NCBI GenBank assembly: GCA_040879605.1
Contig: JBBDKB010000027.1
Span: forward strand, 18,250-56,476
Length of the DNA stretch: 38,227 nt
Origin: Minisyncoccota bacterium
GTDB lineage: Bacteria > Patescibacteriota > Minisyncoccia > Phycocordibacterales > JBBDKB01
Reading direction: 5' to 3'
Both the position numbers and the translations under genes were made by a program. The notes under the pieces are model-generated. The model saw only the letters and a program-made list of their open reading frames with translations. It had not been told where the DNA came from and ran no database searches. Below are positions 30,481-38,193 of this stretch, piece after piece; positions within the stretch are counted from its first letter, which is position 1; the number at the start of each line of letters is the position of its first letter.

Positions 30481-31428
30481 CTACAGGATTCTCTTTTTTG
30501 GGCATGTCGTAAGAAAAGCAACCTCTTCAGTGAGTTCCTTTCTGTTTTTTGGAGTTGTTTTTAAGATAACACAGCCATCAAACGGCATCGAAATGGAATT
30601 ATCCCCTCCGTCGGTGGCGATAACTGTCCCTTTCGAAATTTTTTTAAAATCCTCTATTCCTGGGGCGAAGTTGTATGAGAAGTTTGGGAATAATATTGAA
30701 TCCCTTACTTTGTACTCCGTGTACTCTTTTTTAGGCGTCCGGTGCGTTTTTTTAAGCATGTCTAGATTTTCTAGCATGATAGTAGACGCGGCAGTCGCTC
30801 TCTCAAAGGATGTTGGGGATTCATGAGAACCGGCTTCAATTGCAAAAACTTGATCACTCGGTTTTTGACCATAGAAGAAAAAAGCAGGTTTGTTGATCTG
30901 GATCTTATCAATATTTGAAATCAAAGTGTCGATAGGTATTCCTTCGATTAAACCAGAATGAAAGGTATTTTCTCTACCAATAATCATCGGCTTCATTTCC
31001 GATCGGGTACTGTGAATATCAAGACCATGTGTGAACTTCTTCCAAATTGGGAGAAGTTCACGTGCGCGAGCTATCTCGTAATTCTCTGAGGTGTGAGCTT
31101 CTTGAATGTCTATCGGAAGACGATTCATGTTTATATCGATAAAACGAGACAAACTGTCGCCCTCAAAATATTTTTCTGCTGCTCTGATATTATTAACAAT
31201 TAAGTAAAGTTCACCACGAAGTAAATTTTTTTCTACATCAACTTCATGGAGTAGATAGCTAAAAGCAGCCAATCCCGCAGGTTCGTTGCCGTGTGTACAA
31301 GCGGTTATTCCAACAATTGGACCCGGTTTGCTTGATGAAATGTGAAAAACCCCCTGAACATTTTTGTTGCTTTGCTCAAGGAAAAAGGAAAAAATTTCTC
31401 GATCTGAATGTTTCTTGAAGTTGGACAT
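30481..31428 (-). CDS. Succinylglutamate desuccinylase/aspartoacylase (AstE/AspA) family zinc hydrolase
   Basis: 315 aa. The metal-binding GITACTHGNEPAG (HxxE) and later LDIHST motifs are typical of the family. Confidence 0.75.
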   Translation of the reverse strand: MSNFKKHSDREIFSFFLEQSNKNVQGVFHISSSKPGPIVGITACTHGNEPAGLAAFSYLLHEVDVEKNLLRGELYLIVNNIRAAEKYFEGDSLSRFIDINMNRLPIDIQEAHTSENYEIARARELLPIWKKFTHGLDIHSTRSEMKPMIIGRENTFHSGLIEGIPIDTLISNIDKIQINKPAFFFYGQKPSDQVFAIEAGSHESPTSFERATAASTIMLENLDMLKKTHRTPKKEYTEYKVRDSILFPNFSYNFAPGIEDFKKISKGTVIATDGGDNSISMPFDGCVILKTTPKNRKELTEEVAFLTTCPKKRIL

Positions 31429-31440
31429 TTTTTAAGTTTA

Positions 31441-31475
31441 CCAAAAAAGAAGGAGCACATTCGTTGACGTGCTCC
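31441..31475 (-). terminator. Intrinsic terminator after the GNAT-like gene
   Basis: The minus strand reads GGAGCAC-gtcaacgaat-GTGCTCC followed by TTCTTTTTTGG. Confidence 0.65.
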
Positions 31476-31496
31476 CTTAGTGTGATGGCGCCGTCA

Positions 31497-32207
31497 TTAC
31501 CTGGAGCCAATAAAGAGAAAACCGTTGCGGGTTTTGCTGTCCTGAATCCCGAGGGCCTCTGCAAACCAGGTGTTTACGTCCGGGTTGTTTGATAGAGGAA
31601 TTTGAGGATACAAGCATCTGCCGTATAGGTTTGACACCACGCCGCTTTCAGGGCAGAAACCTTCATCACGGCCCCCTAAGAGTTTTTTTGCATCTTTCTG
31701 AAGGCTTGAGGGAATCCCGGTGGTTGTATTTGGGAAGATCTCAGTAACTAGCGACCTTCCCAGACAGAACATGACAGGACTTTGCGTGGTAAAACACATT
31801 TGTGGAAGATTGCTATTTCCCCACAAATGCTGGACGAGAAGTTTCGCCACCCCTTTGTTTTTTGTTGAGTGTCGCACAGCAACACCGTGGAGGTGGAAAA
31901 AACTTTTGTCGAGAAATTTTCCAGCGGCAAAACCTTGAATTTGTCCTCGCGAGCTCGCGATCGCAAACGCATCTATGTTTTGTATGTGCGCTCGGATCCC
32001 ATCGGCTGAAGCCTCATCAAGCTCGCCTCCGAAACTTTCGACTGTGAACTCGGTTATTTCGCGCACCATTTTTTGGACAAAAGGTACAGCGGTATCCCAT
32101 ACGAGACTCTGGTCCGGGGCTGTTACAAGATGTACCGCAAACTCACCATGTGGTGTTGTTGCGAAAACAAAGAGGTCATCAAGCGAACGTGGCCTTAGCG
32201 GGTTCAT
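31497..32207 (-). CDS. GNAT-fold acyltransferase-like protein (T-box-controlled)
   Basis: The motif-A-like segment is FHLHGVAVRHSTKNKGVAKLLVQHL. The start is set at ATG 32207 (MNPLRP), preceded by AAGGAG 7 nt upstream. The longer track ORF would begin inside the terminator stem. Confidence 0.5.
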   Translation of the reverse strand: MNPLRPRSLDDLFVFATTPHGEFAVHLVTAPDQSLVWDTAVPFVQKMVREITEFTVESFGGELDEASADGIRAHIQNIDAFAIASSRGQIQGFAAGKFLDKSFFHLHGVAVRHSTKNKGVAKLLVQHLWGNSNLPQMCFTTQSPVMFCLGRSLVTEIFPNTTTGIPSSLQKDAKKLLGGRDEGFCPESGVVSNLYGRCLYPQIPLSNNPDVNTWFAEALGIQDSKTRNGFLFIGSR

Positions 32208-32257
32208 GGGCTGTCTCCTTATTTGTGTGAAAGAACGTTTGGATTTCACTAAATGCA

Positions 32258-32494
32258 AAATCCGCCCTCGCGATACAAATAAAAAATACTTGTATCGTAA
32301 GGGCGGATTTCCGCGGTGCCACCTTACTTCACTCTATTGAGTCTCTCACCGACTCATGCACTCCAAAGAGTAGATATCGGTTATCCCATGGTTACGGGGG
32401 AGTCCGGATTCTCACTCACGCAAGAATCTCCCTGCCTTTCGGCGACCGTAGCCCAACCCCCTGAGATCCAGGGGACTACAGTCAAAAGATTTAA
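32258..32494 (-). promoter_or_regulatory. T-box riboswitch-like leader (antiterminator/terminator switch)
   Basis: The minus strand AAGGUGGCACCGCG (complement of 32312-32325) matches the T-box core AGGGUGGNACCGCG at 13 of 14 positions. The antiterminator AAGG-[UGGCACC bulge]-GCGG-AAAU-CCGC-CCUU spans 32325 down to 32299. It overlaps the 5' arm of a 19-bp terminator (32310 down to 32258) followed by UUUUGCAUUU. A possible promoter is TTGACA (32532-32527), 18 nt, then TAGCCT. Confidence 0.7.
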
Positions 32495-32537
32495 CTGATC
32501 TGAGGCTAACATATGCCTCAAGACTTTGTCAACTGGT

Positions 32538-32772
32538 TCTTTTTTTAGGTATGGTGATGGCGAGGCGAGGTCGGGTTTCTCCTTGAGGGAGAAACCGGCG
32601 GAATTCAAATGCGGACTCGGTTTTGCCAAAACTATTTTCTGGGGATTTGGATTTGGCAAAACCTCTGCTCTGATTTCCTGCCCGCATTCATTCCCCCAGA
32701 CCCCCTTCTGCGGGCGGGATTCGCTTTGAATTTTGACCGACAGGGTTTATAAAAAGCGGAATTGGTGGTATG
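32538..32772 (+). repeat. Copy L of a ~235-nt structured leader element (sense to the downstream operon)
   Basis: It is ~95% identical to the reverse complement of 36538-36776. Helices are 32574-32582/32588-32596, 32601-32613/32722-32732, 32620-32630/32652-32662 and 32677-32685/32710-32718. It ends ...GCGGAATTGGTGGTATG, with the ATG at 32770. Confidence 0.85.
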
Positions 32773-32832
32773 TTGAATCGAATCTTGAACGATCGAAGAT
32801 TACGCTCTTTCACAACCAGAAAGGAGGACGCG

Positions 32833-33405
32833 ATGATTATTGCTCTCAGCGGGCCCTCCGGAATCGGCAAGGGCTTCATTAAGGAATGTCTACTGCAGAC
32901 TTATCCGCACATTCAGGAATTGGCATGGTTCACAACTCGTCCTCTGCGTTCAAATGAACAACAGGGCGGAAACAGAATCAATGTCTCGTTTCCCGAATTC
33001 GATCAGATGGCTGGGTTCGGCGAGCTTGTTTTGGTTCAAGACCTCTTTGGTCATCGCTATGGCCTCAGAAAAAAAGACTTACTCCCGAGTTCACACACAA
33101 AGTTAACCGAGTTACATCCGGATAATTTGCCGGAAGCGCTTGGAATAAACCCGGAGATTTTCGCTATCGGACTTGTGACTTTTGATCTTTCTCTGCTCCA
33201 TAAAAGACTTTCTATTGTGAGAAAAACGGAAAGTTCGGCAGAGATAAAAAAGAGAGTTGCGACAGCCAAAAGCGAGAGTGAAACAATCCTACAACGAAGG
33301 TCTTTGTTCACTTCAGTGATTGAAATTACTGAAGCCGGAGAATCTTCGGTGTTGGATAAGATACTTGCAGTTCTGAAACCACATCTAACCAAGAAAGGAG
33401 GGTAG
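32833..33405 (+). CDS. Guanylate-kinase-fold P-loop kinase with atypical GKG P-loop
   Basis: MIIALSGPSGIGKGF...WFTTRPLRSNEQQGGNRINVSFPEFDQM...GHRYGL follows the Gmk pattern GPSGxGK[ST]...TTRxxRxxE..G..Y.F. The start is chosen at ATG 32833 behind AAGGAGG (32821-32827). An in-frame ATG at 32770 is the last triplet of the leader element. Confidence 0.7.
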   Translation: MIIALSGPSGIGKGFIKECLLQTYPHIQELAWFTTRPLRSNEQQGGNRINVSFPEFDQMAGFGELVLVQDLFGHRYGLRKKDLLPSSHTKLTELHPDNLPEALGINPEIFAIGLVTFDLSLLHKRLSIVRKTESSAEIKKRVATAKSESETILQRRSLFTSVIEITEAGESSVLDKILAVLKPHLTKKGG

Positions 33406-33407
33406 TC

Positions 33408-34556
33408 ATGTCTCTCAAGACACAAGTCGGCCCACTGAAACTACAAACGCCGTTGTTGCTGGCTTCAGGGTACATTACCGAGACGCCAGAGTTCTTTCTA
33501 CGAGCCCTACCGTATGGCTGTTCGGGCATGGTCACCCGGTCGCTCAAACAACATGTTCCACCGGAACGTTCAAGGATTACCGTCCCGCGCTACGCAGTTT
33601 TTGGTCAGGACAATATGCTCAACTGCGAGTGGGGCAACGAAAATCCGTGGACAGATTGGCGAGATCACGGCATCCGCCAAGTCAAGGAAACAGGCTATCC
33701 CGTCATTATCTCGATCTCGGGACGAGATTTGGATAGCTGTTGTTATTTGATCCGTGCTTTTGACGAGATTGGTGTTGATGCTTATGAGATCAACATCTCC
33801 TGCTCCCATTCCGGGGCACTGCACGGGAATCTGAACGTTAATGCACTTCATCTGGAGCAGCTGATGAAAAAGGTGCGTGGTGTTACAACAACACCAATCT
33901 GGATCAAATTGTCGTACTCGAACTTGCTGTTCTCGATGGCAAGACGAGCGGAAGAACTGGGGGCCAATGCTATCGTCTGTACGAACAGCATAGGTCCTGG
34001 AATGTTGATCGACACCAAAACTGCCAAACCGAAACTTGGAATCAAGGGCGGTGGCGGTGGAGTAACGGGAAAAGCAATTTTCCCAATCGCTCTGTGGTGC
34101 GTACATCAGCTTTCGGAGACGCTTAGCATCCCAGTCGTCGGCTGTGGTGGAATTTTCACCGCTGACGATGTAGTCCAGATGCTTATGGCAGGTGCAAGTG
34201 CGGTTCAGATTTACACCGCGCCAGCACTTAAGGGTCCGAGGGTCTTCAGGCGGATCGCAACCGGCTTACAGAGGTTTCTCGATGAGAACCCGAAGTACAG
34301 TTCGATCAAAGATCTCATTGGACTCACGCTCGAAAAAACTGGCGAACACCAATTCTCGTCGCTTCGTCCGGTCGTGATTGAGGAGAGATGTACAGGTTGC
34401 GGAATCTGTATTCACTCCTGCGCATTCGATGCTCTTTCAATGGTTCGTCGAACAGACAAAAAACCACTCGCGGTTATTGCTGATAACTGCATTTCGTGCA
34501 ACGCATGCGTTGGAGTATGTCCTCTGAAGTTCGACGCGATCAAGGCGTCATTTTAG
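33408..34556 (+). CDS. Dihydroorotate/dihydropyrimidine dehydrogenase-family flavoprotein with C-terminal 2x[4Fe-4S] ferredoxin domain (PreA-like architecture)
   Basis: 382 aa. The TIM-barrel motifs are LLLASG, EINISCSHSG, GGGGGVTGKAIFPIAL and VGCGGI. The C-terminal cluster motifs are CTGCGICIHSC and CISCNACVGVCP. A strong SD (AAAGGAGGG) is present. Confidence 0.8.
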   Translation: MSLKTQVGPLKLQTPLLLASGYITETPEFFLRALPYGCSGMVTRSLKQHVPPERSRITVPRYAVFGQDNMLNCEWGNENPWTDWRDHGIRQVKETGYPVIISISGRDLDSCCYLIRAFDEIGVDAYEINISCSHSGALHGNLNVNALHLEQLMKKVRGVTTTPIWIKLSYSNLLFSMARRAEELGANAIVCTNSIGPGMLIDTKTAKPKLGIKGGGGGVTGKAIFPIALWCVHQLSETLSIPVVGCGGIFTADDVVQMLMAGASAVQIYTAPALKGPRVFRRIATGLQRFLDENPKYSSIKDLIGLTLEKTGEHQFSSLRPVVIEERCTGCGICIHSCAFDALSMVRRTDKKPLAVIADNCISCNACVGVCPLKFDAIKASF

Positions 34557-34565
34557 GAGGTTATC

Positions 34566-34811
34566 ATGGGAAAAACATACACAATCGCAGTGCATTGCGC
34601 TAAATGTACAACACAGCTCTACCGCTATAAAAAGGAGGGTGGAGGAACGCTCATAAAGTGTTACGCTGACATGATTGTGTCGGATTACACCAAAGGCGAT
34701 CTAAGATGCCATTCCTGTGGCCAGAAGTTTGCTCGACACGCCATCATCCACAACAGACCAGCACATAAGATTATCCGCGGGAAAGTCTTTGTGAGAGGTC
34801 ATCATGGATAA
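34566..34811 (+). CDS. Small zinc-ribbon protein (CxxC...CxxC)
   Basis: 81 aa. The motifs are CAKC...CHSC. An AGGAGG SD lies 5 nt upstream. Confidence 0.55.
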   Translation: MGKTYTIAVHCAKCTTQLYRYKKEGGGTLIKCYADMIVSDYTKGDLRCHSCGQKFARHAIIHNRPAHKIIRGKVFVRGHHG

Positions 34812-34824
34812 AAACAATCACAAA

Positions 34825-34862
34825 CGAGTGGCAGACTAAAACCCTGTCGCTCGTTTTTCTTT
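34825..34862. terminator. Intrinsic terminator between the convergent operons
   Basis: CGAGTGGCAG-actaaaacc-CTGTCGCTCG is a 10-bp stem with two G-U pairs, followed by TTTTTCTTTT. Confidence 0.6.
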
Positions 34863-34867
34863 TCACA

Positions 34868-35482
34868 CTACAAATTGAACCTATTTTTGAAATAATTTGA
34901 GGTATGGTTTTTGTACTCAAAAATTTCATTAGATTCTTTGTTAAGAGTATCTATATATTCAAAAAATTGTTGCTTATTAAATACCTCAAGACCAAGGCTT
35001 TTACAAACATCCGTTATTTCTTTAATTATTTTATCGGCGTCTTCATTTTCGTGCGCCATTTTCTCTGCTTCATAGTAATAACTATGTCCCGGTACTTCTA
35101 CGAGCGCGAATTCAATGTCCCTGTATTCATAGACTTTACTTTTTCTTACGCATAGCATTCCTTTACAGAATCCAAGTGCACCGAAAATCTCAACAAGGGT
35201 ATCGAACTCTCCCTCTTTTGTAAAAACTGAAAGTTCTTTTCTTTGCTCAGCCTCTCCCCATTCGCCAATTTTAACGATAATCTCAGGAATACCATTTGTT
35301 ACTCGCAATCGTATATCTTTATTCCTATTCTTAACGCCGCCTTCTAAAAAGGTTGAGTAATCAATCAAAACTCTATTTTTCTCTGTTATCTTTTTTGCTT
35401 TCGTTTCAAATAGATTAACTAAATCGCCAAATTTTTCTTTGGACAATGGGCCTCGTATTTCTATTTCAATATTTTTACTCAT
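34868..35482 (-). CDS. CYTH domain protein (CyaB/ThTPase-type triphosphate tunnel enzyme)
   Basis: 204 aa. The N-terminal EIEIRG is ExExK-like. RLRV, KELSVF, EFALVEVPG and YYYEAEK strands fit a CYTH tunnel. There is an ATGA overlap with the upstream TruD-like gene. Confidence 0.75.
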   Translation of the reverse strand: MSKNIEIEIRGPLSKEKFGDLVNLFETKAKKITEKNRVLIDYSTFLEGGVKNRNKDIRLRVTNGIPEIIVKIGEWGEAEQRKELSVFTKEGEFDTLVEIFGALGFCKGMLCVRKSKVYEYRDIEFALVEVPGHSYYYEAEKMAHENEDADKIIKEITDVCKSLGLEVFNKQQFFEYIDTLNKESNEIFEYKNHTSNYFKNRFNL

Positions 35483-36540
35483 AATTTACTAATTTTTAGA
35501 AAAATTTGTTTAATGATCATGGTGGCATAACTGCCGGTAGGCAGAAAAAACAAAATGGTTAGTTTTTTCTTGTTCTTGTGCAACTCGTCTTTTTCTAAGT
35601 TGTCAGCATATATTGTAGTCGCAACCACGACATTCCTGTTTTTAACTTTTCGTTTGGTTGTAAATTTCTCGTCCTTGAATTCATACCCGTTTACCTCACA
35701 AATATAAGGACACTGAAATGAGCGCGTTGTTGGCAAATACAAATCTCCAACATTTTCAAAATGAAATTTTTTGCTTTTAGTATTGTCTTTGATCAGTAAA
35801 GAAGTCCGATTATTCCAAAGAAAGCTATTATATGAAGAAACAAAGAAAGAAACTTTTTTGGGGTTGATTTTTTTAAAAACTTCTTTACAAGAAATAACAT
35901 TTTCCAATTTTGGGAAAAAGCTAGGCAGAATGTTGTTTGTAGCTTTCATATGACTATAGGCCTCTATCCAATCTCTTTTTACTATTGCCTCACCAATCAA
36001 GTAAGTATTGTAAGGTCCGCCCGGCATTCCAAATCTTTGATTGTCGTAATAATTTACGAACTGATGGTGTCTGTGAGTTGAAAGATAATCTAAAAGATTC
36101 TTCGCAACATTGCTTTCCAGATTTCTAACTACAATTCTAAACGAATTCCCGTGCAACATTCGCTCTTTTATTGGCTTATCTCCATAACCAATAACATGTT
36201 TGATTAGGGCGTACTGATTTCCTTCTCCATACTTTTTATTGAAAGCCGTAATATCCTTTTTACTCAAGATTTTTTTAACAGAAATAAGTTGTTCTGTAAT
36301 TGCATCCTCGTCCTTTAATCCTTGATTGGCAACATCTTCAAATTTGAGATTGAAAAATGACTTAATATAATCCAGGACATCAAAGGTCGTAAGTCCGGAT
36401 TTTTGAAGCCAAAAATACGTAAATTGAGAAGGTTTTTTAGATGCAAGAGGAGGCATTAAAGAAACCTCCGTCACCTGGAAGTCTTCGTTTTTACATTTTA
36501 TTTTGTACCCTTCAGGCTTGTTCATAATGTATAAGAACAT
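35479..36540 (-). CDS. TruD/Pus7-family pseudouridine synthase-like protein
   Basis: 353 aa. Motifs are EDFQVTEV, the catalytic-type GLKDEDAITEQ and NYYDNQRFG. The first ATG (36540) is the last triplet of leader copy R. An alternative ATG is at 36525. Confidence 0.8.
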   Translation of the reverse strand: MFLYIMNKPEGYKIKCKNEDFQVTEVSLMPPLASKKPSQFTYFWLQKSGLTTFDVLDYIKSFFNLKFEDVANQGLKDEDAITEQLISVKKILSKKDITAFNKKYGEGNQYALIKHVIGYGDKPIKERMLHGNSFRIVVRNLESNVAKNLLDYLSTHRHHQFVNYYDNQRFGMPGGPYNTYLIGEAIVKRDWIEAYSHMKATNNILPSFFPKLENVISCKEVFKKINPKKVSFFVSSYNSFLWNNRTSLLIKDNTKSKKFHFENVGDLYLPTTRSFQCPYICEVNGYEFKDEKFTTKRKVKNRNVVVATTIYADNLEKDELHKNKKKLTILFFLPTGSYATMIIKQIFLKISKL

Positions 36541-36776
36541 ACCACCAATTCCGCTTTTTATAAACCCTATCGGTCAAAATTCAAAGCGAATCCCGCCCGC
36601 ATTCATTCCCCAGACCCCTTTCTGCGGGCGGGAAACCAGAGCAGAGGTTTTGCCAAATCCAAATCCCCAGAAAAATAGTTTGGCAAAACCGAGTCCGCAT
36701 TTGAATTCCGCCAGTTTCTCCCCCCAAGGAGAAACCCGACCTCGCCTCGCCATCACCATACCGAAAAAAAGAAATC
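36538..36776 (-). repeat. Copy R of the ~235-nt structured leader element (sense to the TruD-like/CYTH operon)
   Basis: It is the reverse complement of copy L apart from a few substitutions or indels and an inverted 23-nt hairpin loop (36601-36623). Confidence 0.85.
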
Positions 36777-36936
36777 AGAATCGCGCGAAAACAAAATTTA
36801 TAGTGCGTGGTGGCGAGCGAGGGTAGATGCGACACAGCAGAAGCGAAGCCGAGCATATTCTTTGTGCTTGGCGGAGCGGAGGCTGTGGCGTGGCGGAATT
36901 CATTACCTCACGTGATTTTGGAAATAGGTTCTAGCT

Positions 36937-36945
36937 TGGTACAAT
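36937..36945 (+). promoter_or_regulatory. Extended -10 box (TGGTACAAT) with TTGGAA -35-like hexamer (36918-36923), 9 nt upstream of the M16 peptidase ATG
   Basis: The plus strand reads TTGGAA-16 nt-TACAAT-agagacact-ATG. Confidence 0.45.
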
Positions 36946-36954
36946 AGAGACACT

Positions 36955-38193
36955 ATGAGAGATCGCCAAATATTTGAAACAATAAGGTTGAAGAATGGCA
37001 TTACGGTACACCATTATCCAACCGACCAACCGTTCGCATTTTTTAACGTGAAAATACCAATTGGCAACGTGCATAACACCGGTGACATCCTCCCCGGTAC
37101 TGCACACTTTTTCGAACATCTCGCGTTACTACGTTCCGAACAATACCCGGAAAGAAGCGCTTTCCCGAGATGGGTGGGGCTTCACGGTGGCACCTTCAAT
37201 GCCGCCACCAATATTTTCGATACCGATTATACTATGGCTATTCCTGCTGAAAGGACAACTGAGGCGTGGAATGGATTTTATTCTCATATTTTTGAACCCG
37301 TTATCCTGCAGGAGGATTTGGAGCGTGAACGTGCAATTGTCTCAAACGAGCGTAAACAACGGCGGTGGTATCCGGGAATGACGGAACTTTCCCACTACCT
37401 TTGGGCTTTGTGGATACATGCTGAAGGCGTAAGTAAACGACAGTTATTCGGAGACGATGAAGACCTTGCGAAACTTTCAACCGAAGCGCTCTTAGATTTT
37501 CACGGGCACTATTTTACCCCCGATATCCACGTCCTTGTCGGTGGGACTCTCCAAGTCGAACAAATCATATCATCTCTCTCCGTGTTAAACCTCGCGACTC
37601 ACAAACATGCCGAAACGTATACTCCTTTCAACTGGGAGCGTAAAGAGTATCACGAATGTACCTTCTCCGACATTGATATGCCTATCTATTTCACGGGAGC
37701 GTATTATGCACTGCCTCCGTATGCGGAGCGCGTTGCGTTGCGTTTTCTTCTCGAATTTCTCACAAATATTCATCACGGCCCCCTATATCAATGGCTCCGC
37801 GATGAGAAAGGATGGGCGTATAGCGTGAGCTACGATGCCATCACATCAGGGAAAGATGAGGCGCTCATGTTGGAGATCCCTCTCCATGATATCTCGCAAG
37901 TGACGGCAGTTCGAAAGGAAATCGATGAGCGCATACAGGGGGCAATCTCAAACGAGTCGCTCCTCGCTGCTGAAGTGAAGCGTCAACTTGGTGCCGAAGT
38001 ATTCGACTTTCAAACTCTTGAAAATCTAGTGGAGGAAGCGGGTTATGATATCAGCTATTATGGACGTGTTGTTAGCGAAACTGAATACCGTGAGTATAAA
38101 AAGCGTTGCGCAAACGCTTCCTACTTGCACCTAATATATGAGAAGTATCTTTCTCCGTCTTTGCGTGGAGAATTTTGTGCACTACCTCAATAG
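36955..38193 (+). CDS. M16 (pitrilysin/insulinase) family zinc peptidase
   Basis: 412 aa. The inverted zinc motif is HFFEHLAL (HxxEH), with a downstream E (ERAIVSNE). Confidence 0.85.
   Translation: MRDRQIFETIRLKNGITVHHYPTDQPFAFFNVKIPIGNVHNTGDILPGTAHFFEHLALLRSEQYPERSAFPRWVGLHGGTFNAATNIFDTDYTMAIPAERTTEAWNGFYSHIFEPVILQEDLERERAIVSNERKQRRWYPGMTELSHYLWALWIHAEGVSKRQLFGDDEDLAKLSTEALLDFHGHYFTPDIHVLVGGTLQVEQIISSLSVLNLATHKHAETYTPFNWERKEYHECTFSDIDMPIYFTGAYYALPPYAERVALRFLLEFLTNIHHGPLYQWLRDEKGWAYSVSYDAITSGKDEALMLEIPLHDISQVTAVRKEIDERIQGAISNESLLAAEVKRQLGAEVFDFQTLENLVEEAGYDISYYGRVVSETEYREYKKRCANASYLHLIYEKYLSPSLRGEFCALPQ

What the first reader, a model, noticed from the sequence alone, without database searches (positions are those of the whole stretch)
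32538..32772. Novel ~235-nt structured leader present twice, in front of two convergent nucleotide-enzyme operons (partner 36538-36776)
**Seen.**
- The reverse complement of 36538-36776 aligns with 32538-32772 with only about eight small differences outside one loop.
- Both copies end ...AAAAAGCGGAATTGGTGGT-ATG-TT. That ATG is the first in-frame ATG of the inward-facing ORF (32770 plus strand, 36540 minus strand). The element is therefore sense-oriented to both operons.
- The coding regions they precede are unrelated and differ strongly in composition. Spot counts give 32 of 60 G+C at 33421-33480 and 21 of 60 at 35641-35700.

**Fold of copy L.**
- A hairpin, GGTTTCTCC-ttgag-GGAGAAACC.
- A long-range helix, AATTCAAA(t)GCG/CGCTTTGAATT (32602-32613 with 32722-32732). 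It encloses two further hairpins, giving a three-way junction.
- The first enclosed hairpin is an 11-bp GTTTTGCCAAA/TTTGGCAAAAC stem with a 21-nt loop.
- The second is a 9-bp CYGCCCGC/GCGGGCGGG stem.
- The stem differences between copies preserve pairing only in the sense RNA. These are C to U giving G-U in the first hairpin of copy R, and C to U giving U-G in the GC hairpin of copy L.

**Other observations.**
- ORFs crossing the element are frame-shifted between the copies, so it is non-coding.
- I cannot match the element to any riboswitch or leader class I know.
- Together with the T-box leader it forms a 625-nt non-coding block in an otherwise compact genome.

**Inference.** This may be a shared cis-regulatory RNA (riboswitch-like or protein-binding) that co-regulates both operons. 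Alternatively it is a portable promoter/leader cassette that travels with accessory genes.
Basis: partly seen in the sequence, partly recalled or inferred. Interest (0 to 1): 0.85.

Follow-up and report, generated by a model that had tools for sequence, protein, structure and literature searches.

The report
Duplicated promoter region with conserved hairpins
The repeat is real, but it is not a riboswitch-like leader: each copy is part of a hairpin-rich non-coding module found in ultra-small (CPR) bacteria, and it ends in the promoter of the operon it faces, so two convergent operons share one promoter.

Summary
The inverted repeat is confirmed (32537-32774 versus 36536-36773, 93-98% identical). 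One hairpin loop is physically inverted between the copies.

The "structured leader" reading does not hold. The last 29 nt of each copy (TTTATA-N17-TGGTATGTT) align with a sigma-70-type promoter. That promoter lies in front of the orthologous genes in more than 25 related loci. For TruD the -10 ends 7-12 nt before the start codon and there is no Shine-Dalgarno, so the mRNA is effectively leaderless. The hairpins therefore lie upstream of the predicted transcription start. The ATG at the repeat's end sits inside the -10 box and is not a start codon.

Two hairpins (hp2, hp3) are conserved, with compensatory changes, and hp3 is more conserved than synonymous sites.

These hairpins belong to a discrete module of about 330-400 nt. 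The right copy is complete (to about 36950). The left copy is a 5'-truncated duplicate.

The module also occurs next to unrelated genes in other CPR metagenome contigs. It is missing or decayed in many orthologous cassettes. It matches no Rfam family. Within a genome the two copies evolve in concert.

The module's own function is unresolved. It could be an ncRNA gene or an intergenic repeat element.

The parts
32537..32774 (+). Copy L. It is a 5'-truncated copy of the module (hp1-hp3 plus T-rich tail) fused to the core promoter of the GMK-like operon.
   Evidence: nhmmer: window 32537-32686 matches module positions 199-355 only.
32574..32596 (+). hp1: GGTTTCTCC-ttgag-GGAGAAACC. It is variable across the family, and other members have a different hairpin at this position.
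32619..32663 (+). hp2: a 12-bp stem GGTTTTGCCAAA/TTTGGCAAAACC with a 21-nt loop. The loop starts with the conserved AACTATTTT and holds a G-rich motif.
   Evidence: 4 pairs with double changes between family types.
32677..32718 (+). hp3: a GC stem with a 24-nt loop (32686-32709). The loop is inverted relative to copy R and to all relatives.
   Evidence: (D1, D4).
32719..32735 (+). T-rich tail after hp3 (ATTCGCTTTGAATTTTG). It could be a terminator-like tail or an UP-like tract.
   Evidence: T-rich in all members except L063.
32746..32774 (+). Core promoter of the GMK-like operon. The -35 TTTATA is 32746-32751, the spacer is 17 nt, and the extended -10 TGGTATGTT is 32766-32774. The predicted start site is about 32781.
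32781..32801 (+). Conserved hairpin in the true 5' UTR of the GMK-like gene (AATCTTGA..TCGAAGATT). It lies outside the repeat.
   Evidence: It is conserved in L002, L004, L005, L034, L047, L055, L057, L058 and L061.
32833..34811 (+). Left operon: GMK-like kinase (32833-33405), PreA/DHODH-like flavoprotein with a 2x[4Fe-4S] domain (33408-34556) and a Zn-ribbon protein (34566-34811).
34822..34863 (.). Bidirectional terminator-like hairpin between the convergent operons. It has a 13-bp stem, with T-rich sequence after it on both strands.
   Evidence: Read from the sequence. Not tested with a tool.
34868..36525 (-). Right operon: TruD-like pseudouridine synthase (35479-36525) and a CYTH-domain protein (34868-35482).
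36536..36564 (-). Core promoter of the TruD operon. The -35 is 36559-36564 and the -10 is 36536-36541. The predicted start site is about 36529, 4 nt before the ATG, with no SD.
36536..36773 (-). Copy R, the part repeated at L. It contains hp3 (36592-36632), hp2 (36647-36690) and hp1 (36713-36737).
36774..36950 (-). Distal half of the complete module, present only at R. It includes the 5' arm (36807-36817) of a helix whose 3' arm (36746-36756) lies inside the repeat, and the conserved motif TATTGTACCAAGCTAGAACCTATTTCCAAAA.
   Evidence: (window 36964-36591 matches module positions 8-385, E 2e-82).
36918..36945 (+). Outward promoter TTGGAA-N16-TACAAT, preceded by TGG. It lies 9 nt before the ATG of the M16 peptidase gene (36955). 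Its mirror image on the minus strand is a -10-like TATTGT.

Best explanation
The two 238-nt arms are an inverted duplication of a promoter-bearing intergenic region. They are not an mRNA leader.

**1. Each arm ends in a promoter.** Each arm ends in the sigma-70-type core promoter of the operon it faces: -35 TTTATA, 17-bp spacer, extended -10 TGGTATGTT. Transcription is predicted to start just beyond the repeat. The TruD operon would be essentially leaderless. The GMK-like operon would have a 52-nt 5' UTR carrying its own small conserved hairpin and an AGGAGG. Both convergent operons of a conserved five-gene nucleotide-enzyme cluster are thus driven by the same promoter and spacer sequence. The promoter motif and its position are shown by comparison. 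The start sites are inferred.

**2. The hairpins belong to a separate module.** Upstream of the promoter lies part of a discrete, hairpin-rich non-coding module of about 330-400 nt.
- Copy R (36536 to about 36950) is a complete module. It fills the divergent intergenic region between the M16 peptidase gene and TruD.
- Copy L is only the promoter-proximal 200 nt. Its 5' edge cuts a helix in half, and its hp3 loop has since flipped.

**3. The copies evolve in concert.** The two copies stay alike through gene conversion or re-duplication. In every genome that has the repeat, the two copies resemble each other far more than they resemble their orthologues. The length of the repeat differs between genomes, from 29 to about 440 nt.

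**4. What the module itself does (inferred, unresolved).** It is a dispersed family in Paceibacteria-like CPR bacteria. Its hp2 and hp3 are selectively constrained, and it has an outward consensus promoter at its far end. My preferred reading, at about 40%, is a non-essential unit transcribed in the sense direction. Transcription would start at the mirror-image -10 (TATTGT) and end at hp3 with its T-rich tail. Nearly as likely is a BOX/Correia-like intergenic repeat element that supplies promoter and terminator signals.
For: **Promoter**
- The repeat's last 29 nt align with a promoter-like box in front of the orthologous genes in more than 25 loci, including ones with otherwise unalignable upstream DNA.
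- On the TruD side the -10 ends 7-12 nt before the start codon in 14 of 16 loci. It usually carries TGn, and there is never an SD.
- On the GMK side the box lies 42-64 nt upstream in most loci and is followed by AGGAGG.
- In L004, L058 and L061 this box is the only sequence shared between the two upstream regions (29-34 nt).
- Gene lengths in homologues fit the downstream start codons.

**Natural insertions**
- In L046/L055 a 1.5-kb IS lies between the hp3 tail and the -35. The promoter box stays attached to an intact TruD.

**Module**
- An nhmmer profile of full-length members matches window 36964-36591 over positions 8-385, but window 32537-32686 only over positions 199-355.
- In R, the helix CTCGCCACCAC/GTGATGGCGAG has its 5' arm outside the repeat.
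- Complete or partial modules lie next to other genes: a YbaK-like gene in L063, an unknown gene after tRNA-Ala in L064, and non-coding DNA in L066. Nine other distinct downstream sequences are inferred from antisense ORFs.

**Constraint**
- hp3 is 41/41 identical and the hp2 stem 17/17 identical between the window and L055/L034. Four-fold synonymous sites are only 0.69-0.78 identical, and linkers are 5/13.
- 97% of stem cells are paired, and 7 pairs show double changes.

**Concerted evolution**
- Paralogue identity is 0.88-0.90. Orthologue identity is 0.56-0.70.

**The cluster is conserved, not accessory**
- 24 genome loci across Patescibacteria carry it, with a clade-wide GC contrast between the halves.
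Against: - No transcript data exist. The start sites are inferred from consensus and comparison only.
- hp3 followed by a T-rich tail in the sense orientation is what a terminator-type expression platform would also look like.
- hp3 has an unusually large loop (19-24 nt) whose sequence is conserved. A plain terminator does not explain that.
- The sense promoter proposed for an ncRNA is weak, with a poorly conserved -35.
- In L063 the tail after hp3 is only TTT.
- Compensatory changes rest on only 2-3 evolutionary events (types A, B and C). Palindrome-correcting template switching at the DNA level could also produce them.
- Repeated independent duplication cannot be told apart from gene conversion.
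Confidence: 0.68

Rival explanations
1. The element is a sense-strand 5' leader, either riboswitch-like or protein-binding. It would be transcribed from a promoter upstream of hp1, with hp3 and the U-tract as its terminator platform, and it would co-regulate both operons.
For: - hp3 has a GC stem followed by a T-rich tail in the sense orientation in nearly all members.
- hp2 and hp3 are strongly conserved with compensatory changes.
- In copy L a promoter-like TTGTCA-N18-TATGGT lies at 32526-32555.
- The sense strand folds better than shuffles.
Against: - The box after hp3 is a conserved sigma-70-type promoter. It lies 7-12 nt from the SD-less TruD start codon.
- No conserved promoter lies upstream of hp1. 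The -35 in copy L is outside the repeat and has no counterpart in copy R.
- The closing helix is not conserved.
- The module is absent, decayed or separated by an IS element in many orthologous cassettes.
- The module also occurs next to unrelated genes.
- Copy L is an arbitrarily truncated half-module with an inverted loop.
- There is no Rfam match.
Confidence: 0.08
2. The module is an independent gene for a structured non-coding RNA of about 350 nt. It would be transcribed in the sense direction from the mirror-image -10 (TATTGT) of the outward promoter and would end at hp3. The window would then hold one functional copy (R) and one pseudo-copy (L). This is compatible with the promoter architecture above.
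For: - The block is discrete, with conserved ends in different genomic contexts.
- In L066 homology begins about where the sense transcript would start.
- The 3' end looks like a terminator.
- hp2 and hp3 are more conserved than synonymous sites.
- The element often sits next to tRNA genes.
Against: - The sense -35 is weak and variable.
- Stem wobble mismatches show no strand bias, 8 G.T against 4 A.C.
- The middle of the module is highly plastic and long-range helices are not conserved.
- The module has been lost in many lineages.
- The hp3 tail is nearly absent in L063.
Confidence: 0.3
3. The module is a selfish or neutral intergenic repeat element of the BOX/Correia/REP kind. It would spread or be copied by recombination and would incidentally carry promoter and terminator signals. 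The inverted pair in the window would be two insertions or copies of it.
For: - It has multiple contexts, truncated copies and a modular, hairpin-rich build.
- Many family contigs are short, as expected if assemblies break at a repeat.
- IS elements have inserted nearby.
- hp2 and hp3 share a genome-specific loop motif.
Against: - There are no terminal inverted repeats and no target-site duplications at the module's ends.
- There are no further copies in the 38-kb window, and in about 0.5 Mb of related loci outside these slots.
- Conservation within the module is uneven, which argues for constraint rather than recent spread.
Confidence: 0.25
4. The arms are the terminal inverted repeats of a transposon or an invertible (phase-variable) segment. 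The five genes would be its cargo.
For: 238-nt inverted repeats bracket a 3.8-kb segment whose two halves differ in GC content.
Against: - No transposase or recombinase lies between or beside the arms.
- The five-gene cluster is conserved across Patescibacteria, mostly without the repeat.
- The GC contrast is clade-wide.
- The arm length varies from 29 to 440 nt between genomes.
- No locus with the opposite orientation was seen.
- Inversion would change nothing, because each arm carries the same promoter.
Confidence: 0.04

Closest known systems
Sigma-70-type promoters with an extended -10 driving leaderless mRNAs. A mirror-symmetric -10 (TAnnnTA) can give divergent transcription (own knowledge: Warman et al. 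2021, Nat Microbiol).
   Same: - The motif is -35 TTTAYA, 17 bp, TGnTAnnnT.
- The -10 lies 7-12 nt from an SD-less ATG.
- The outward promoter's TACAATA is mirror-symmetric.
   Different: - The promoter, spacer included, is duplicated in front of two convergent operons.
- The spacer is unusually conserved (AAAAGCGGAATTGGTGG), which hints at an overlapping operator.
- No start sites have been mapped in this lineage. PMC12641261 lists experimentally mapped start sites for one CPR species, Nanosynbacter lyticus (188 sites, from RNA-seq).
Modular intergenic repeat elements that carry promoter or terminator signals: pneumococcal BOX, Neisseria Correia/NEMIS, ERIC and REP/BIME (own knowledge).
   Same: - It is non-coding, hairpin-rich and modular.
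- It is found in several intergenic contexts, close to gene starts.
- Truncated copies exist.
- No transposase lies inside it.
   Different: - It is much longer (330-400 nt).
- Its copy number looks low.
- It has no terminal inverted repeats or target duplications.
- It has strongly constrained large-loop hairpins.
Terminator-type riboswitches and leaders, including the T-box.
   Same: Conserved hairpins are followed by a GC stem and a T-rich tract upstream of genes.
   Different: - It lies upstream of the predicted promoter.
- It has no conserved multi-helix junction.
- It is not tied to one gene class.
- It is dispensable in orthologous loci.
- It has no Rfam match.
Concerted evolution of inverted duplicates by gene conversion, as in the tufA/tufB genes of Salmonella and chloroplast inverted repeats. 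Also small hairpin-loop inversions in chloroplast non-coding DNA (own knowledge: Abdulkarim and Hughes 1996; Kelchner and Wendel 1996).
   Same: - Copies within a genome stay near-identical while orthologues diverge.
- A loop flanked by a 9-bp inverted repeat has flipped in one copy.
   Different: The converted tract here is a promoter region with an adjacent non-coding module, and its length varies between genomes.

Membership tests
Riboswitch / cis-regulatory 5' leader | Lies between the transcription start and the start codon of the regulated gene. | tested here: not met
   A conserved promoter box forms the 3' end of the repeat. The hairpins are upstream of it. The start sites are inferred, not mapped.
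Riboswitch / cis-regulatory 5' leader | Conserved multi-helix architecture supported by covariation. | tested here: inconclusive
   hp2 and hp3 are kept, with 7 double-change pairs that rest on about 2-3 events. The closing helix is absent in 7 of 7 relatives. hp1 and the middle of the module are replaced between types.
Riboswitch / cis-regulatory 5' leader | Consistent association with the regulated gene class across genomes. | tested here: not met
   The module is absent from most orthologous cassettes. It is present next to a YbaK-like gene, an unknown gene and non-coding DNA.
Any described RNA family (Rfam 15) | Covariance-model match. | tested here: not met
   There are no hits on the element at the gathering threshold. 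At E up to 10 in the window and L002 there are only generic hairpin hits. At E up to 0.1 in L063, L064 and L066 there are none on the module.
Sigma-70-type core promoter | -35 and -10 hexamers with 16-18 bp spacing, conserved in position relative to the gene across orthologues. | tested here: met
   TTTAYA-N17-(TGn)TAnnnT is found in 14 of 16 TruD loci and most of 30 GMK loci. No experimental start sites exist.
Intrinsic terminator (hp3) | GC-rich stem, short loop and a U-tract directly after the stem. | tested here: inconclusive
   The GC stem and a T-rich tail are present in most members. However, the loop is 19-24 nt with conserved sequence. The tail is interrupted in the window and only TTT in L063. 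The scan tool did not call it.
Transposon / MITE terminal inverted repeats | A transposase (for autonomous elements), terminal inverted repeats at the element's ends and target-site duplications. | tested here: not met
   No transposase lies between the arms. The cargo is a conserved syntenic cluster. The module ends show no TIR or TSD. The IS elements seen in relatives are separate insertions.
Invertible promoter switch (inverton) | Short inverted repeats flanking a promoter, with a site-specific recombinase nearby and both orientations present. | tested here: not met
   The repeats contain the promoters and flank genes. None of the neighbouring genes scanned against Pfam (30481-38193) is a recombinase. 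Only one orientation was seen in all loci. Population-level inversion is not testable here.
Dispersed intergenic repeat element (BOX/Correia-like) | Many copies per genome in unrelated intergenic sites. | tested here: inconclusive
   Several distinct contexts are seen across metagenomes. Only two copies are in the 38-kb window, and none elsewhere in about 0.5 Mb of related loci. No complete genome was available.

The most novel reading that the evidence does not exclude
The module of about 330-400 nt would be a previously undescribed large structured non-coding RNA of Paceibacteria-like CPR bacteria. Its bounds would be the conserved 5' motif GAACCTATTTYCAAAA and hp3 with its T-rich tail. hp2 and hp3 would present a genome-specific G-rich loop motif to a co-evolving partner. 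The RNA would be positioned immediately upstream of promoters of nucleotide and tRNA-related genes. The window would hold one intact gene and one decaying partial copy.
Probability: 0.25. Interest if true: 0.65.

Novelty: new member of a known kind. Interest (0 to 1): 0.42.

Why it matters
- **Riboswitch candidate removed.** This takes an attractive but wrong riboswitch candidate off the list, and shows how the error arises. An inverted duplication that ends exactly at a -10 box, whose TATGTT contains an ATG, mimics a shared leader.
- **Co-regulation by promoter duplication.** It documents a tidy way of co-regulating two convergent operons in a streamlined genome. The promoter region is duplicated and then kept identical by concerted evolution.
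- **A conserved non-coding module.** It brings to light a conserved, hairpin-rich module in CPR bacteria that matches no Rfam family and has two selectively constrained large-loop hairpins. CPR genomes are compact and their non-coding RNAs are poorly catalogued. A conserved element of about 350-400 nt is therefore worth a targeted transcriptome check.
- **A conserved gene cluster.** The five-gene cluster (GMK-like, PreA-like, Zn-ribbon, CYTH or NUDIX, TruD-like) is conserved across Patescibacteria. I found no description of it in two full-text searches.

Tried and rejected
- **Rfam.** Searches at the gathering and E-value thresholds on the window, L002, L063, L064 and L066 gave nothing but generic hairpin hits.
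- **PADLOC.** The five proteins gave no hits, so this is not a known defence system.
- **NCBIfam.** All five proteins score below the equivalog cut-offs.
- **Coding potential of the element.**
  - Sense and antisense ORFs exist but differ in frame between copies and types.
  - The antisense frame that is open in the window reads a stop codon in the type-B sequence, by my own reading of the sequences.
  - A mini-ORF starting at the ATG at the end of the hp3 loop varies in length, and that ATG is ATC in L020, by my own reading.
  - I rejected both.
- **CsrA-sponge idea (GGA-rich loops).** No CsrA homologue occurs in any family locus. The only hit was in an unrelated chance-match locus, L051. Sampling is small, so this is not excluded.
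- **Phage or mobile origin.** The hp3 and distal motifs give 0 hits in the viral contig collection.
- **tRNA relation.**
  - L009 has a weak tRNA hit (32 bits), which I read as tRNA-Leu-like with a broken acceptor stem, next to the module.
  - ARAGORN calls nothing there.
  - The promoter spacer shares GCGGAATTGGT with the tRNA-Leu D-arm.
  - I did not pursue this, and it may be chance.
- **Strand test by wobble pairs.** The result was 8 G.T against 4 A.C, which is not informative.
- **Metagenome pattern scan.** 14 of 24 hits were chance matches inside coding DNA and were discarded.
- **Long-range helices in the full module.** They are predicted in single sequences but not conserved across types.
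Full report
**1. Observation**

The window holds an inverted repeat of about 238 nt, at 32537-32774 on the plus strand and 36536-36773 on the minus strand. It was found as three collinear blocks of 93-98% complementarity and was confirmed by pairwise alignment. These are the only two copies in the 38-kb window.

The single divergent stretch is not ordinary divergence. 32676-32719 and 36591-36633 are direct repeats on the plus strand (D1 and D4). The loop of the GC hairpin has therefore been physically inverted in one copy. All relatives carry the copy-R orientation, so the flip happened in copy L.

Both sense sequences fold better than shuffles (z -3.0 and -3.9). The antisense strand does too (z -2.6). 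No Rfam family matches.

**2. The genes between the arms**

Between the arms lie five genes in two convergent operons:
- a GMK-like kinase,
- a PreA/DHODH-like flavoprotein with a ferredoxin domain,
- an 81-aa Zn-ribbon protein,
- and, on the other strand, a CYTH protein and a TruD-like pseudouridine synthase.

Homologue names place the organism in Patescibacteria/Paceibacterota.

The same convergent cluster occurs in 24 species-representative genomes of Paceibacterota, Uhrbacteria, Saccharibacteria and Nanosyncoccaceae, and in many metagenome contigs. In some of these, CYTH is replaced by a NUDIX protein, with or without a methyltransferase. The cluster is therefore a conserved module, not accessory cargo.

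The GC contrast is stable across the clade. PreA-like is about 0.45-0.53 and TruD/CYTH about 0.27-0.34. It does not mark a recent transfer.

**3. Where transcription starts**

I aligned the upstream regions of GMK-like and TruD from all loci. Every one has a sigma-70-type promoter-like box. The last 29 nt of the window's repeat are that box: TTTATA-AAAAGCGGAATTGGTGG-TATGTT.

A scripted survey found the following:
- On the TruD side there is a -35, a 16-18-nt spacer and a -10, usually with TGn. The -10 ends 7-12 nt before the start codon in 14 of 16 loci. There is never a Shine-Dalgarno sequence, which is what leaderless mRNAs look like.
- On the GMK side the box lies 42-64 nt upstream in most loci, followed by AGGAGG.

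Homology between the two window copies stops exactly after the -10. In L004, L058 and L061 the box is the only sequence shared by the two upstream regions (29-34 nt).

The ATG that ends the repeat is part of TATGTT. The true starts are 32833 and 36525. Homologues of 189-190 aa and 344-349 aa fit those starts.

Hence the hairpins lie upstream of the predicted start sites (about 32781 and about 36529) and are not in the operon leaders. The real 5' UTR of the GMK-like gene has its own small conserved hairpin (32781-32801), which lies outside the repeat.

**4. What the hairpin region is**

By homology to L002, L055 and L063, the window's right copy extends to about 36950. It fills the whole divergent intergenic region between TruD and the M16 peptidase gene. 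Its far end carries an outward consensus promoter (TTGGAA-N16-TGGTACAAT, 36918-36945) that lies 9 nt before the M16 ATG.

The left copy matches only positions 199-355 of the family profile. Its 5' edge cuts through a helix whose other arm (36807-36817) exists only at R. Copy L is therefore a truncated duplicate.

Across the family, hp2 and hp3 are kept. 97% of stem cells are paired, and 7 pairs carry changes on both sides. These changes fall into three sequence types, A, B and C, so they represent few independent events.

hp1 and the middle of the module are replaced between types. In seven relatives it is no better than shuffles.

hp3, stem and loop together, is 41/41 identical and the hp2 stem 17/17 identical between the window and L055 or L034. 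Four-fold synonymous sites are only 0.69-0.78 identical, and linkers diverge. These two hairpins are therefore under constraint. Their loops share a genome-specific G-rich motif: TCTGGGGA in type A and TGCGGGAGGAA in type B.

**5. Distribution**

The module is not tied to this cluster:
- Most orthologous clusters lack it.
- L058 and L018 carry internal deletions of it.
- In L061, by my own reading of the sequence, only a decayed remnant of hp3 is left.
- In L046/L055 an IS element lies between the hp3 tail and the -35, while the promoter stays with an intact TruD.
- In L035 another IS follows the promoter.

Conversely, a translated search with the antisense ORF found 12 more instances. None of them has the TruD/GMK promoter box. 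Three were inspected:
- L063 has a complete module upstream of a YbaK-like gene, with a different promoter directly abutting hp3.
- L064 has it after tRNA-Ala and before an unknown gene.
- L066 has a copy truncated at both ends, followed by non-coding DNA.

The motifs are absent from viral contigs. In about 0.5 Mb of related loci the module occurs only at these slots.

**6. Concerted evolution**

Within a genome the two arms are 0.88-0.90 identical over the 200 nt ending at the -10. Orthologous arms of different genomes are 0.56-0.70 identical. Both arms of a genome always share the same type.

The arm length differs between genomes: 29, 34, 74, at least 141, 188, 238 and about 440 nt. This is the signature of gene conversion, or of repeated re-duplication, between inverted copies.

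**7. Strand and RNA tests**

The T-rich tail after hp3 fits sense-direction termination. However, the loop is too large and too conserved for a plain terminator, and L063 has almost no tail. A sense promoter can be proposed as the mirror image of the outward -10 (TATTGT), but its -35 is weak.

Whether the module is an ncRNA gene, a repeat element or a protein-binding upstream region cannot be settled without transcript data.

**8. Verdict**

The leader or riboswitch interpretation is not supported.

The finding is a duplicated promoter region joined to a member of a conserved, undescribed non-coding module family in CPR bacteria. Interest is moderate.

Noticed in passing
window 32296-32494 (-), with a 24-bp terminator hairpin at 32258-32310, upstream of gene 31497-32258 (-): A T-box-like leader precedes a 253-aa GNAT-like protein rather than an aminoacyl-tRNA synthetase. 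The Rfam score is 32.6 bits (E 1e-4), far below the gathering score, but the GGUGGCACCGCG box and a terminator are present.
   Followed up: partly
window 32781-32801 (+): A small hairpin (AATCTTGA..TCGAAGATT) lies in the true 5' UTR of the GMK-like gene. It is followed by the conserved TTATGYTCTTTCACAACCAAAAAAGGAGG. It is conserved in at least 9 relatives, with G.U variants in L005 and L055. It is a better candidate for a real leader element than the repeat.
   Followed up: partly
window 32833-34811 versus 34868-36525; loci L002-L030: The two halves of the conserved cluster keep a 12-20 point GC difference in nearly all Paceibacterota-type genomes, whatever the genome GC. PreA-like is about 0.5 and TruD/CYTH about 0.3. 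The difference is much smaller in Saccharibacteria-type loci.
   Followed up: partly
window 34822-34863: A 13-bp hairpin lies between the convergent operons, with T-rich runs on both strands. It is probably a bidirectional terminator. The only Rfam hit there is a noise-level Hatchet match.
   Followed up: no
L046 100-1620 and L055 1-86; L035 200-1840: Two independent IS insertions lie at the promoter of the TruD operon in relatives. One encodes a 438-aa DDE transposase and is flanked by a 16-bp duplication TATTTTGGCGAGATAT, between the hp3 tail and the -35. The other is an element with transposase-like ORFs (judged from their sequence; not scanned against Pfam), directly after the -10.
   Followed up: partly
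L009 3976-4057 (+); L061 G-side upstream region: A weak tRNA match (32 bits), which I read as a degenerate tRNA-Leu-like sequence with a broken acceptor stem, abuts the module in L009. A sequence I read as an intact tRNA-Leu lies about 95 nt upstream of the GMK promoter in L061. The promoter spacer GCGGAATTGGT equals the tRNA-Leu D-arm sequence. tRNA genes flank the module in L002, L005 and L064 as well.
   Followed up: partly
window 36918-36957 (+): The M16 peptidase gene (36955-38193) appears to be leaderless too. The -10 TACAAT ends 9 nt before the ATG and there is no SD.
   Followed up: no
L066 360-840 (read on the minus strand): About 480 nt of GC-rich DNA with no called gene follow a truncated module copy. 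There is no Rfam hit at E up to 0.1.
   Followed up: no
L005, L060, L061, L006: The cluster composition varies. CYTH is replaced by a NUDIX hydrolase, with or without a UbiE-like methyltransferase. In L006, TruD travels with NUDIX and thymidylate kinase. This suggests a nucleotide (pyro)phosphatase step is the conserved function of that slot.
   Followed up: no
L018 G side (about 44-111) and L058 9510-9576: Internal deletions join the hp2 loop directly to the hp3 loop (L018) or to the hp3 tail (L058). They look like recombination between the shared G-rich loop motifs.
   Followed up: no
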